A stretch of DNA of 64,000 nt, from the IMG/VR virus record IMGVR_UViG_3300030102_007485, positions 13,880-77,879 of that record; one strand, written 5' to 3'. The notes below the pieces were generated by a model, which was given only the letters and a program-made list of their open reading frames with translations, was not told where the DNA came from and did no database searches. Source of the stretch: a virus. Positions 6,159 to 11,655 of the stretch are shown here, in pieces. The position numbers were made by a program, and so were the translations under genes. Each line of letters begins with the position of its first letter. Position 1 is the first letter of the stretch.

Positions 6159-6908
6159 ATGACGATTGACCCCTACAGAACGATATATGTTTTTGATATT
6201 GACGGCACATTAACCGAACCACGACAAAAAATGACCGAAGATTTTTGCTTCTTGTTCTCGGATTGGTCTCAGACAAGGGAAGTGGTCCTTGCAACAGGAA
6301 GTGATTATCAGAAAGTAAAGCAACAATTACCTTCCAGCATACTTGACCGTTGTCAGTTGGTTTTCTGCTGCATGGGTAATGAAGTGAGAAATTCTGATGG
6401 TACGGTAATAGATACAAACTCCTTTACGTTGTCTGAGGAGATGGAAAATGACTTGAAAAATTTTTTGGTCAATTCTTCATACGCTGAAAAAGTGGGACGC
6501 CACATTGAATATCGCACCGGCATGGTCAACTTTTCTGTAGTCGGCAGAAATGCTAGTCTTGAGCAACGCAAGCGATACAATTTGTGGGACAAAGTAAATC
6601 AGGAAAGAATGTCTATAGCGGAGGCAATAAATTCAAAATACCCTGAAATCGACGCAACCGTCGGAGGATCAATAAGTATTGACATCATAAAAAAAGGGGC
6701 AGACAAAGGACAGGTGGTAAAATACCTGCAAGATCTTAAGGTTGAAAGACTTGTTTTTGTCGGTGATCGTTGCTATCCTGGAGGAAACGACTTTGGTATT
6801 GTAAGAGAGTTAGAGGTTAGTAGTTTAGTGTATGAGTGGTTTAATGTAGAAAGTCCCAAGGGAACTATTGATTTGATTTTAAATAATTCTGCATTTAAAA
6901 GATTTTAG
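6159..6908 (+). CDS. HAD-IIB phosphomannomutase (eukaryote-type PMM)
   Basis: FDIDGTLTEPRQ, TGSDY, IEYRTGMVNFS, GGSISIDI, FVGDRCYPGGNDF. Confidence 0.88.
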   Translation: MTIDPYRTIYVFDIDGTLTEPRQKMTEDFCFLFSDWSQTREVVLATGSDYQKVKQQLPSSILDRCQLVFCCMGNEVRNSDGTVIDTNSFTLSEEMENDLKNFLVNSSYAEKVGRHIEYRTGMVNFSVVGRNASLEQRKRYNLWDKVNQERMSIAEAINSKYPEIDATVGGSISIDIIKKGADKGQVVKYLQDLKVERLVFVGDRCYPGGNDFGIVRELEVSSLVYEWFNVESPKGTIDLILNNSAFKRF

Positions 6909-6957
6909 TGTGTCACATAGGAATTGAGCATAATAATTAAACCGGGAGGTATTAGAT

Positions 6958-7026
6958 ATGAGTGATTCAAAGAAATGCAGTTGTTGCGAGTGTTGCACAT
7001 GTACTTGTGAAAAGTGCTGCGAATAA
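6958..7026 (+). CDS. Metallothionein-like micropeptide MSDSKKCSCCECCTCTCEKCCE (22 aa, 9 Cys), not in ORF track
   Basis: Strong SD GGGAGGT at 6944-6950, ATAATTA at 6933-6939, CxC/CC pattern. Confidence 0.7.
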   Translation: MSDSKKCSCCECCTCTCEKCCE

Positions 7027-7032
7027 AGATTT

Positions 7033-7343
<311 letters not shown>

Positions 7344-7625: not shown

Positions 7626-8213
7626 ATGCAGATCTTAATCGAAAAGTGGTCCAAGAAATATAAGAGATCAATTGATTGTAACAATCCAAAAGGTTTTTCT
7701 CAAAAAGCACACTGTCAAAGCAGAAAAAAGAGAGAAAATCTTACCTTAAATCAAATAATTCAAATTATTGATGAAGAAATACAAAATTTTCTAGATGAAA
7801 GGTGTCAAAAAGGTTACAAAACTCACCCTACAAGAAAAACTAAGAAAATGTTTGGTAGGACTTACAGAAATTGTGTCAAAGCAGATGAAAGTTCTGATCC
7901 AAAAAAGGGAACTGGTAAAAAACCAAAGGGATCTGGTAGAAGACTTTACACTGATGAAGACCCAAGTGACACTGTGAGTGTTAAGTTTCGAACTGTTTCT
8001 GACATAAAAGACACCTTTTCAAAGTCAAGTTTTAAAAGCAAGTCACATAAAAGACAATCTCAGATTATAAACCTAGTCCATCAGCGAGTTAGGGCAGCAT
8101 ATAATAATGCGAAAGACCCAGAAACCAAAGCAAGACTCAAGAAAGCACTTGATTATGCTAAGAAAAAGAAAGAGTCTTCAAAAGAGAAGACAAAGAGGAT
8201 GAATAGAAAATGA
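7626..8213 (+). CDS. Basic modular hypothetical protein
   Basis: Short Cys-pair modules and a DPKKGTGKKPKGSGRRLYTDE segment; CTATTTA 4 nt upstream. Confidence 0.7.
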   Translation: MQILIEKWSKKYKRSIDCNNPKGFSQKAHCQSRKKRENLTLNQIIQIIDEEIQNFLDERCQKGYKTHPTRKTKKMFGRTYRNCVKADESSDPKKGTGKKPKGSGRRLYTDEDPSDTVSVKFRTVSDIKDTFSKSSFKSKSHKRQSQIINLVHQRVRAAYNNAKDPETKARLKKALDYAKKKKESSKEKTKRMNRK

Positions 8214-8632
8214 AAAAGATTATAATAAAGATTATGAAAAAAGTAAAAGACTATATTTGCCCTCCTGCAACTCAAGATTTGAAACTAAACACTAAAAATC
8301 GTGATGCTACAATCAAACAATACAACTATGGTCCACTAAATGTTGATGAACCTGATGATTATTGGAAAGATATTGCAAAATATTGGAAAACTTCAGAGAA
8401 GGCAGCAAAGAAATCGAACTGTGGTAATTGCGTCGCCTTCGACATATCCCCAAGGATGAAAGATTGTATGCCGGGTGATACATTTGATAAGGATGGTCAA
8501 CTCGGATATTGCTGGATGCACCACTTTAAATGCCATTCCGCTAGGTCTTGCCACACTTGGGCGAAGGGTGGACCAATCAAGATAGACGATGAGTCTCATA
8601 AGTGGCAAGACAAGAATAAGTTTGGCAAGTGA
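8210..8632 (+). CDS. Cys/His-rich protein with HiPIP-like Cys spacing
   Basis: CGNCVAF...GYCWMHHFKCHSARSCHTW; ATGA overlap with upstream gene. Confidence 0.6.
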   Translation: MKKIIIKIMKKVKDYICPPATQDLKLNTKNRDATIKQYNYGPLNVDEPDDYWKDIAKYWKTSEKAAKKSNCGNCVAFDISPRMKDCMPGDTFDKDGQLGYCWMHHFKCHSARSCHTWAKGGPIKIDDESHKWQDKNKFGK

Positions 8633-8637
8633 TTTGT

Positions 8638-9021
8638 ATGGCGTATTCAAAACAAGTGATTGATCATTTTGAAAATCCAAGAAATGTAGGTTCTTTTGAT
8701 AAGGACGACACATCTGTTGGTACGGGTATCGTAGGTGCACCTGCTTGTGGAGACGTAATGAAGTTGCAAATAAAGGTGGACGAGAATGGCATAATTCAGG
8801 ACGCAAAGTTCAAAACATATGGTTGTGGTTCTGCCATTGCTTCATCTTCTCTTGTCACAGAGTGGATAAAGGGTCGCTCTCTGGATGATGCCCTTATGAT
8901 TAAAAATGTGGAAATAGCAAATCATCTTTCCCTCCCCCCAGTCAAGATTCATTGCTCTGTTTTAGCGGAGGATGCAATAAAGTCTGCAATTGAAGACTAC
9001 AAATCAAAATTAACAAACTAA
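8638..9021 (+). CDS. iscU: Fe-S cluster scaffold IscU (start 8638)
   Basis: MAYSKQVIDHFENPRNVG, GAPACGDVM, TYGCGSAIAS, LPPVKIHCS. Confidence 0.97.
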   Translation: MAYSKQVIDHFENPRNVGSFDKDDTSVGTGIVGAPACGDVMKLQIKVDENGIIQDAKFKTYGCGSAIASSSLVTEWIKGRSLDDALMIKNVEIANHLSLPPVKIHCSVLAEDAIKSAIEDYKSKLTN

Positions 9022-10840: not shown

Positions 10841-11014
10841 ATGAGAAAATTTGATATAACAATAAAAAATAAAACAACTTTAGAAAAGAAAAACTTTTTT
10901 GAGCAATATTATACATTTGCTGAAGCATTCAGGTTTGCTTTTCTGCAGTGTCACAATGGAATGTCCCGTGAGTGGGAAATAATGTCGATTAAACAAGCGG
11001 AGATTGCTCAATGA
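10841..11014 (+). CDS. Small hypothetical protein, 57 aa (MRKFDITIKNK...), not in ORF track
   Basis: Hand translation; ATGA overlap with clpP start; TAAGAT -10-like hexamer 6 nt upstream. Confidence 0.65.
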   Translation: MRKFDITIKNKTTLEKKNFFEQYYTFAEAFRFAFLQCHNGMSREWEIMSIKQAEIAQ

Positions 11015-11655
11015 AGGATCATTTTTGGGGAAATGAAACAGAAGAGATATCCGAGGAGAAAAAAATGACTCCTCACGAGTATGCCTCGGAATCTAAAACA
11101 GGTCATGCAGCAACAGACAATGACCAAGTCGAATTTAGTCACAATAGAATATATTTTTACTCTGCTGTGACTAGACCAAAAATATTAAAGTTAAACAAAG
11201 GCATTTTTAATATGAATGTTAATCTAACTTCACGAACAACTATGATGGATTACCAACCACCCCCAATCAAGTTGCATATAAATAGTTATGGGGGGTCTGT
11301 GTTCGCTGGACTCTCTGCTGTTGATTATATCAAGAATTCAAAAATACCAATACATAGTGTTATTGATGGTTGCGCTGCATCTGCTGCCACTCTAATGTCA
11401 GTTGTTGCTGATAGGAGATATATGCACAAAAATGCCTGCATGTTGGTCCACGAATTGTCAGGATTGATGTGGGGTAAATTCAAAGACATGAAGGATGACA
11501 TGGAGAACTCAAGCATGTTGATGGATAAGATTCGAAAAATATACAAGGAGCACACAAAGATACCAAAAAATGAGTTGGAGAAGATTCTGCAACATGACAT
11601 TTGGTGGGAAGCAGATAAGTGCCTAGAGTATGGATTGGTGGATGAGATAATATGA
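11011..11655 (+). CDS. clpP: ClpP-family protease
   Basis: LHINSYGGSV, GCAASAAT (Ser), MLVHE (His), HDIWWEADKCLEYGLVDEI. Confidence 0.9.
   Translation: MKDHFWGNETEEISEEKKMTPHEYASESKTGHAATDNDQVEFSHNRIYFYSAVTRPKILKLNKGIFNMNVNLTSRTTMMDYQPPPIKLHINSYGGSVFAGLSAVDYIKNSKIPIHSVIDGCAASAATLMSVVADRRYMHKNACMLVHELSGLMWGKFKDMKDDMENSSMLMDKIRKIYKEHTKIPKNELEKILQHDIWWEADKCLEYGLVDEII

What the first reader, a model, noticed from the sequence alone, without database searches (positions are those of the whole stretch)
6933..7026. Unannotated 22-aa metallothionein-like peptide immediately upstream of the tmRNA
Seen: MSDSKKCSCCECCTCTCEKCCE has 9 Cys and no aromatic residues. It has a strong SD (GGGAGGT) and the ATAATTA motif upstream, and its stop lies 6 nt before the tmRNA 5' end. 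It is below the ORF-track cutoff. Known: 9 Cys is the count in a 3-metal metallothionein beta domain, and CC pairs are more typical of animal metallothioneins than of bacterial SmtA. Inference: a minimal phage Zn/Cu/Cd chelator carried in the pre-tmRNA leader and released by RNase P processing.
Basis: partly seen in the sequence, partly recalled or inferred. Interest (0 to 1): 0.72.

Follow-up and report, generated by a model that had tools for sequence, protein, structure and literature searches.

The report
Phage nine-cysteine micro-gene beside tmRNA
The 22-codon, nine-cysteine reading frame that ends 6 bases before this marine phage's tmRNA is a real gene kept by selection; it belongs to an unannotated family of cysteine-packed micro-peptides seen only on phage DNA, it probably binds metal, and its place next to the tmRNA is one gene order among several, not a requirement.

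Summary
Observation confirmed. ORF 6958-7026 encodes MSDSKKCSCCECCTCTCEKCCE. GGGAGGT lies 8 nt upstream, and TAA lies 6 nt before tmRNA G1 at 7033. Nine Cys codons in 21 are expected about 3e-4 times per window.

It is a real gene. About 28 phage loci carry 14-22 aa relatives with the core C-x-CC-E-CC-x-C-x-C. The nearest, L010, is also 22 aa. In nine relatives all 17 third codon positions vary, against 7 first and 5 second positions (pS 0.89, pN 0.13). Every Cys codon is TGC or TGT.

A related long type (helix plus HCCCCCGCC, 31-49 aa, about 87 loci) fills the same slot in syntenic phages. No Pfam, PHROG, NCBIfam or PDB match was found, and no cellular homologue in the scans that finished.

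At least 11 family members end 0-34 nt before diverse tmRNAs. Others have one gene inserted in between. In seven large genomes the two genes lie 44-140 kb apart. In this clade any upstream ORF abuts the tmRNA.

The metallothionein reading rests on composition only; metal binding is untested. A cysteine-sensing leader is unlikely.

The scan met this family before on other DNA (e1-5741595, e1-5726565).

The parts
6910..6937 (+). Weak sigma-70-like promoter match (GTGTCA, 16 nt, AATAAT) in the 49-nt gap after the phosphomannomutase-like gene
   Evidence: It is the only + strand promoter-like site between 6000 and 7374. It matches 9 of 12 positions, and the region's total is near what shuffles give, so this is weak.
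6933..6939 (+). ATAATTA motif 25 nt before the ATG; candidate phage promoter element
   Evidence: The same heptamer starts 25-26 nt before the ATGs at 6159, 6958 and 49004. The total count in the window (11) is at chance level. AATTA-type motifs recur upstream of relatives.
6944..6950 (+). Shine-Dalgarno GGGAGGT, 8 nt before the ATG
   Evidence: All 28 short-type loci taken as family members, and nearly all long-type relatives, have a GGAG-type site in the same place.
6958..7026 (+). 22-codon gene for the nine-cysteine micro-peptide MSDSKKCSCCECCTCTCEKCCE (short type)
   Evidence: Family membership and purifying selection. No known family.
7027..7032 (+). 6-nt spacer AGATTT between the stop codon and tmRNA +1 (the RNase P site)
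   Evidence: Relatives have spacers of -1 to 34 nt.
7033..7341 (+). One-piece phage tmRNA, tag ANDDVEIFEDYALAA, with G3:U pair and encoded CCA
   Evidence: ARAGORN. Rfam RF00023, 130 bits, E 5.7e-52, full length.

Best explanation
Positions 6958-7026 are a real, translated gene of a large uncultured marine T4-like myovirus. It encodes a 22-residue peptide whose nine cysteines sit in a conserved pattern (C-x-CC-E-CC-x-C-x-C-x-x-CC). The peptide belongs to a family of poly-cysteine micro-proteins seen only on phage DNA. There is a short type of 14-22 aa, which includes this one, and a probably homologous long type of 31-49 aa with an N-terminal amphipathic helix and an HCCCCCGCC core. Most likely the peptide itself is the functional product, and it folds around soft metal ions (Cu(I), Zn(II), Cd(II)) as a thiolate cluster, as a one-domain metallothionein does. 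The gene is transcribed with the tmRNA from a promoter upstream of the ORF. RNase P cleavage at G7033 then separates the small mRNA from the tmRNA. This arrangement is an inherited gene order of one phage lineage, not part of how the peptide works. Shown: the ORF, its conservation and purifying selection, its restriction to phage DNA, and the variable linkage to tmRNA. Inferred: co-transcription, RNase P separation and metal binding.
For: Existence and rarity. Relatives: L010 MSDTKKCKCCECCTCDCDKCTE differs at 18 of 69 nt, with 7 synonymous codon changes, a TAA/TAG stop change and 5 replacements. L471, L262, L579, L266, L207, L398 and L576, plus 14-17 aa forms, are further relatives, and all have an SD. 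Selection: in the 17-codon core of 9 relatives, variable sites by codon position are 7/5/17, pS 0.885 and pN 0.133. In 8 long-type genes the counts are 10/8/29, pS 0.87 and pN 0.13. Cys codons are only TGC or TGT, never TGA or TGG. Non-Cys positions are conserved too: E11 in the short type, and G22, H6, H16 and the helix in the long type. This points to a functional peptide, not merely a run of Cys codons. Same slot: NTase fusion, F2, (PMM), poly-Cys, (inserted ORF), tmRNA, IscU in the window, L007, L012, L016 and L032. The short and long profiles align without gaps at 91% probability. Independence from tmRNA: roughly 60 long-type loci have no tmRNA downstream. In 7 large genomes the two genes are 44-140 kb apart. 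No promoter-like site lies between the stop and tmRNA. The leader RNA is unstructured, z = +0.70. No RiPP maturase is present.
Against: Metal binding is inferred from composition alone. There is no homology to any metallothionein family (Pfam, NCBIfam, PDB), and AlphaFold gives no defined fold for the Cys part. Poly-Cys genes abut tmRNAs with very different sequences and tags, in both the short and the long type. Plain inheritance of gene order does not fully explain this, so a functional link cannot be excluded. The promoter assignment is weak. No expression data exist.
Confidence: 0.5

Rival explanations
1. Cysteine-sensing or translation-coupled leader. Ribosomes translating, pausing or terminating on the Cys run, only 0-6 nt from tmRNA +1, would cover the RNase P site and the 5' acceptor strand. 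tmRNA maturation or downstream expression would then depend on Cys-tRNA supply, as in the polycysteine short ORFs of mycobacteria.
For: There are 9 Cys codons in 15 codons right at the tmRNA 5' end. The abutment recurs with diverged tmRNAs and both peptide types: window 6 nt, L576 5, L579 4, L262 5, L471 overlapping, L006 0, L007 4, L099 5, L064 9, L075 15, L016 34. Many long-type genes overlap the next gene's start codon. The precedent is bioRxiv 10.1101/834739.
Against: No attenuator can fit: the spacer is 6 nt, there is no downstream RBS, and the leader is unstructured at z = +0.70. The gene has an SD and is not leaderless. Downstream genes have nothing to do with sulfur metabolism. The exact Cys spacing and the non-Cys residues are under purifying selection. 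Most family members are far from any tmRNA. In this clade unrelated upstream ORFs abut the tmRNA just as closely.
Confidence: 0.1
2. A thiol-rich peptide with a role other than metal binding: a redox or persulfide buffer, an Fe-S helper working with the nearby phage IscU, or (for the long type) a small cargo peptide carried into the capsid by its N-terminal helix.
For: IscU (NifU_N, E 1e-52) and Cys-motif proteins lie 1.2-1.6 kb downstream. The long-type N-terminus MKxxLHRLxNLF resembles the N-terminal motifs MKxLLENWRxY and MK(I/L)TKxQLxxIIKEE of the genes that follow it in about 50 loci.
Against: There is no ferredoxin-type spacing. IscU is not a conserved neighbour across the family. The window's peptide lacks the N-terminal helix altogether. 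The capsid-tag idea is itself untested.
Confidence: 0.25
3. Precursor of a ribosomally made, post-translationally modified peptide (RiPP).
For: It is short and Cys-rich. The long type has a leader-plus-core look.
Against: No maturase is a conserved neighbour in 88 loci. The virus record has no radical SAM or MNIO gene, but it is only 43% complete. The window's peptide has no leader.
Confidence: 0.05
4. A chance ORF, or a period-3 UGY RNA motif, in the tmRNA leader with no coding function.
For: It is very short and unannotated.
Against: About 3e-4 such ORFs are expected by chance. SD, ATG and an in-frame stop are conserved in all 28 short-type family loci and nearly all of about 87 long-type loci. 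The third base of every Cys codon is only C or T. The substitution pattern is that of a protein-coding gene.
Confidence: 0.02

Closest known systems
Metallothioneins, especially one-domain forms (25-26 aa fungal Cu-thioneins; the 9-Cys, 3-metal beta domain of mammalian MT). Recalled from my own knowledge.
   Same: Tiny size; 41% Cys arranged as CC, CxC and CxxC; no aromatic residue or His in the window's peptide. The SCCSCC-like runs resemble KCCECC. AlphaFold defines no fold for the Cys-rich part of the long type.
   Different: No sequence homology to any MT family. Seen only on phage DNA. Even denser in Cys. The long-type relatives carry Phe, two conserved His and an amphipathic helix. Metal binding has not been shown.
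Polycysteine leaderless short ORFs of mycobacteria, the 'Cys ribulon' (Canestrari et al., bioRxiv 10.1101/834739)
   Same: An unannotated short ORF packed with Cys codons, placed first on a polycistronic transcript.
   Different: Those ORFs are leaderless, precede cysteine-metabolism genes, and work through an RNA duplex that hides the next RBS. Here there is an SD, a tmRNA or unrelated genes downstream, no room for a duplex, an unstructured leader, and selection on the peptide sequence itself.
Long-type phage HCCCCCGCC micro-peptides (31-49 aa), an unnamed family noted earlier in this scan (e1-5741595, e1-5726565)
   Same: Same syntenic slot upstream of the tmRNA in related phages. Shared core [KC]-C-[KC]-CC-[EG]-CC-x-C (hhalign 91%). 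Same SD and the same strong purifying selection.
   Different: The window's peptide lacks the 15-residue N-terminal helix and the invariant His and Gly, and has Glu and Lys between the Cys pairs. Given the composition bias, homology is probable but not proven.

Membership tests
Metallothionein (operational class) | Low molecular mass with very high Cys content in CC, CxC and CxxC motifs | tested here: met
   22 aa, 9 Cys (41%), C-x-CC-x-CC-x-C-x-C-xx-CC.
Metallothionein (operational class) | Few or no aromatic residues or His | tested here: met
   None in the window's peptide. The long-type relatives have Phe and two conserved His.
Metallothionein (operational class) | Sequence homology to a recognised MT family (Pfam MT families, bacterial SmtA/BmtA, solved MT structures) | tested here: not met
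   No Pfam, NCBIfam or PDB match at E up to 10. The profile search of 1.84 billion proteins found only the phage family itself.
Metallothionein (operational class) | Binds metal ions in thiolate clusters | not testable with these tools
   Needs peptide chemistry. The AlphaFold model of the long type has no defined Cys fold.
Polycysteine sORF attenuators (mycobacterial type) | Leaderless short ORF with a run of Cys codons | tested here: not met
   The Cys run is present, but the ORF has an SD 8 nt upstream, as do its relatives.
Polycysteine sORF attenuators (mycobacterial type) | An RNA duplex hides the downstream RBS and is disrupted by ribosomes stalled in the Cys tract; downstream genes act in cysteine metabolism | tested here: not met
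   6-nt spacer, tmRNA downstream, leader fold z = +0.70. Neighbours are unrelated to sulfur metabolism.
RiPP precursor | Co-located, conserved maturase gene | tested here: inconclusive
   No conserved neighbour in 88 loci. No radical SAM or MNIO in the virus record, which is only 43% complete.
Phage poly-Cys micro-peptide family, short type (unnamed) | SD, ATG, 0-6 residues, then C-[KS]-CC-E-CC-x-C-x-C with a C-terminal CC, on phage DNA | tested here: met
   Alignment A2 has 7 invariant Cys and E11 in at least 90% of sequences. The closest relative, L010, is also 22 aa.
tmRNA (Rfam RF00023), the adjacent gene | Full-length covariance-model match, tag ORF, G3:U acceptor pair, CCA end | tested here: met
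   130 bits against a gathering score of 47, model positions 1-374. Tag ANDDVEIFEDYALAA.

The most novel reading that the evidence does not exclude
The poly-Cys gene and the tmRNA form a working module. The ORF ends 0-6 nt before tmRNA +1, and in L471 the stop codon even borrows G1. A terminating or Cys-stalled ribosome would therefore compete with RNase P and with acceptor-stem folding. After cleavage the small mRNA is left with a stop at its very 3' end, or with none. Peptide yield, tagging by the phage's own tmRNA and tmRNA maturation would then all be tied to Cys-tRNA supply during infection.
Probability: 0.07. Interest if true: 0.85.

Novelty: new variant of a known kind. Interest (0 to 1): 0.55.

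Why it matters
Micro-genes of 14-49 codons fall below the usual annotation cut-offs. Here one family of them turns out to be widespread in large marine phages: about 115 loci in IMG/VR from the patterns tried. It is strongly conserved and is absent from Pfam, PHROGs, NCBIfam and the papers searched. If the peptides do bind metal, they would be the smallest and most cysteine-dense metallothionein-like proteins known, and a new kind of phage auxiliary gene acting on host trace-metal or thiol chemistry in the ocean. Why they so often sit against a phage tmRNA is unexplained and can be tested directly.

Tried and rejected
Searches that gave nothing or could not run:
- The search for homologous proteins refuses queries under 40 aa.
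- The neighbour-gene search with the phosphomannomutase-like protein found no relatives.
- blastn of the region against cultured phages hit only a 40-nt piece of the tmRNA 3' end.
- tblastn of a 49-aa family member against 50,697 phage records found nothing. BLAST's low-complexity filter may have hidden matches.
- The three nearest deposited phage records lack the HCCCCCGC pattern: Microcystis phage Mel-JY01, Flavobacterium phage immuto, and the uncultured-phage assembly LR756508. Their baseplate protein is about 29-33% identical to the window's.
- ESM Atlas gave no usable hit.
- The AlphaFold model was too uncertain for a fold search.
- No paper was found on phage poly-Cys peptides or on ORFs in tmRNA leaders.

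Pattern scans:
They added only a few members, so absence from cellular genomes, SAR86 included, is not established.

Cellular origin rejected:
- The three MAG hits carry the phage baseplate gene: TMED69 and 'Pelagibacter' TMED166 on the same contig as the poly-Cys gene, the Halobacteriovorax MAG elsewhere in the bin.
- The TMED69 bin also has a second, stronger tmRNA on another contig.

Full report
THE OBSERVATION. The window is 64 kb of a 77.9 kb IMG/VR virus record estimated to be 43% complete. Its genes are those of a large marine T4-like myovirus: baseplate wedge, PhoH, carbamoyltransferase and glycosyltransferases. The nearest deposited phage records are only about 29-33% identical in the baseplate protein.

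The ORF is exactly as described. ATG is at 6958 and TAA at 7024-7026, giving 22 aa, MSDSKKCSCCECCTCTCEKCCE. GGGAGGT is at 6944-6950 and ATAATTA at 6933-6939. The tmRNA at 7033-7341 is solid: ARAGORN gives the tag ANDDVEIFEDYALAA, and Rfam RF00023 scores 130 bits over the full model. From base composition, nine Cys codons in 21 are expected about 3e-4 times in the window, and nothing else in the window comes near. The record holds a single copy.

IT IS A GENE.
- Anchoring on the tmRNA 5' end found related phage contigs. Two of them (L006, L007) have a 31-aa, 10-Cys ORF abutting the tmRNA.
- Degenerate DNA patterns then showed two types.
- The long type is M-K-x-x-L-H-(K/R)-L-x-N-L-F-N-x-x-H-CCCCC-G-CC-x-C plus a variable tail. 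It occurs in about 87 loci as 75 distinct peptides.
- The short type is M-x(0-6)-C-(K/S)-CC-E-CC-x-C-x-C...CC, 14-22 aa. It occurs in about 28 loci as 18 distinct peptides.
- The window's peptide is a short-type member. Its nearest relative is L010, MSDTKKCKCCECCTCDCDKCTE, also 22 aa. The two differ at 18 of 69 nt: 7 synonymous codon changes, a TAA/TAG stop change and 5 replacements.
- Across nine short-type genes, all 17 third codon positions of the core vary, against 7 first and 5 second positions (pS 0.885, pN 0.133).
- Eight long-type genes give 10/8/29, pS 0.87 and pN 0.13.
- Every Cys codon ends in C or T. All 28 short-type loci and nearly all long-type loci have an SD.
- Non-Cys positions are also kept: Glu11 in the short type, and Gly, two His and the helix in the long type.
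- Together this excludes a chance ORF and a non-coding UGY motif. It also shows that the peptide sequence matters, not only the Cys codons.

WHAT IT IS NOT.
- Pfam, PHROGs, NCBIfam and PDB sequences gave nothing, even at E = 10.
- A profile search of 1.84 billion representative proteins found seven hits. Six of them (P0001-P0005, P0007) are clearly the same family; the seventh, P0006, is a weak match (E 4e-4) to a repetitive protein without the motif. All six looked up came from metagenomes and none carries an informative name.
- The three hits in species-representative MAGs are phage DNA inside bins. The poly-Cys contigs of TMED69 and TMED166 also carry the phage baseplate gene, and the Halobacteriovorax bin has one on another contig. 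The TMED69 bin has a second, stronger tmRNA on another contig.
- No RiPP maturase is a conserved neighbour. The record has no radical SAM or MNIO gene.
- AlphaFold on 73 long-type sequences gives only an N-terminal helix, at mean pLDDT 69. The Cys part has no defined fold.

THE TMRNA LINK.
- Short type, distance from the stop to tmRNA +1: window 6 nt, L576 5, L579 4, L262 5, L471 -1 (its TAG uses G1), L398 67. L010 is at 526 nt, with one ORF (MPKFYRQNKK...) inserted.
- Long type: L006 0, L007 4, L099 5, L064 9, L075 15, L016 34. Then 280-1529 nt in eight others.
- ARAGORN confirmed the complete tmRNAs. Their tags are very different (ANNNNHFDSVRLAA, ANNDVELDNFAQAA, ANDNVAFDYALAA, ANNNYHYESARLAA and others). 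The pairing therefore spans diverged tmRNAs and both peptide types.
- Against a functional tie, roughly 60 long-type loci have no tmRNA downstream. Instead they overlap the start of an unrelated protein gene.
- Of nine large contigs of that kind, seven do encode a tmRNA, but 44-140 kb from the poly-Cys gene.
- In the window's own clade, whichever ORF lies upstream ends 0-15 nt before the tmRNA. Some stop codons overlap G1, as in L003 and L010. This tight abutment is how the tmRNA gene is embedded in an operon, not something special to the peptide.
- In a tmRNA-anchored sample of 126 viral tmRNAs, only this marine clade shows the association.

MECHANISM.
- Shown: there are 6 nt and no promoter-like site between the stop and tmRNA +1. 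The 89-nt leader has no significant structure, z = +0.70.
- Inferred: the ORF and the tmRNA are co-transcribed from upstream of the ORF, from a weak -35/-10 match at 6910-6937 or from the ATAATTA element. That heptamer also sits 25-26 nt before two other genes. RNase P then cuts at G7033.
- Inferred from composition and conserved Cys spacing: the peptide forms a metal-thiolate cluster. Nine Cys would fit three divalent ions, or more Cu(I).

I put the gene being real at above 0.95, metal binding at about 0.5, and the whole statement at 0.5.

RIVALS.
- A cysteine-sensing leader like the mycobacterial polycysteine sORFs (bioRxiv 10.1101/834739) fails three of that system's features. There is an SD instead of a leaderless start. 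There is no hidden downstream RBS or duplex. There is no link to cysteine metabolism. Selection on non-Cys residues also speaks against it.
- A non-metal thiol role (redox, Fe-S with the nearby IscU, capsid cargo) cannot be excluded.
- The RiPP and chance readings are unlikely.

EARLIER NOTES OF THIS SCAN. Two follow-ups on other genomes (e1-5741595, e1-5726565) reached the same view of the long type. My codon, synteny and distance tests agree with them independently. Notes on an 8-Cys micro-gene in SAR86 (e1-2320938, e1-2310681) led me to look for cellular copies of the short type. The specific pattern found none outside phage contigs.

VERDICT. The place in the tmRNA leader is a lineage gene order, not a mechanism. 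This is a new, unannotated family seen only on phage DNA, of moderate interest. One point remains unexplained: the repeated abutment of poly-Cys genes to diverged tmRNAs.

Noticed in passing
L003:1938-1940, L010:4792-4794, L471 (stop overlapping tmRNA +1 at 1022, - strand): In three related phages the stop codon TAG of the ORF upstream of the tmRNA uses the tmRNA's first G. RNase P cleavage would leave that mRNA without a stop codon, making it a natural substrate for the tmRNA it was cut from.
   Followed up: partly
About 50 long-type loci, e.g. L057, L066, L096 (MKLTKSQL..IIKEE) and L056, L061, L111 (MKxLLENWRxY); window 7626-8213 starts MQILIEKW: The gene just after the poly-Cys gene often overlaps its stop (ATGA). 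It starts with one of two conserved N-terminal motifs, although the proteins range from 68 to 595 aa and are otherwise unrelated. The long-type peptide's own N-terminal helix resembles the second motif.
   Followed up: partly
L069, L093, L096, L102, L113; P0002: Some long-type peptides carry a basic C-terminal tail containing RRRGRPRKKK, an AT-hook-like motif. This hints that these variants bind nucleic acid.
   Followed up: no
L398/L589 (MAG 'Methylococcaceae TMED69', 305 kb contig), L176 (MAG 'Pelagibacter TMED166', 116 kb contig), L171 (Halobacteriovorax MAG): Three species-representative MAGs contain phage DNA. Each bin holds a baseplate wedge homologue, a poly-Cys gene and more than one tmRNA match over the cut-off. 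In TMED69 and TMED166 these lie on the same contig. Such bins could mislead host or tmRNA assignments.
   Followed up: partly
window 6134, 6933, 48978: ATAATTA starts 25-26 nt before the ATGs at 6159, 6958 and 49004. L016 and L398 have the same heptamer upstream of their poly-Cys genes. It may be a phage promoter element, although the total count in the window (11) is what chance gives.
   Followed up: partly
window 8629-9021 and 11011-11655: A phage IscU (NifU_N, E 1e-52) and a ClpP-like protease lie 1.3 kb and 3.7 kb downstream of the tmRNA. No SmpB is found in the 77.9 kb record.
   Followed up: partly
L008:4373-4758, L009 around 7698: Two viral contigs share the same tmRNA 5' 24-mer, but it is preceded by a tmRNA-like 3' end. 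ARAGORN calls the L008 copy a permuted tmRNA.
   Followed up: no
L075:642-805: Two HCCCCCGCC ORFs lie in tandem upstream of one tmRNA. The upstream copy is degenerate (MKKILNKKHCCCCCGCCKWPIPLRYFAHLL).
   Followed up: no
window 6944-6950 and 7330-7337: In the minimum-energy fold of the whole precursor, the SD GGGAGG of the micro-gene pairs with the CCUCC of the tmRNA 3' acceptor strand. This is probably a by-product of SD and acceptor complementarity.
   Followed up: no
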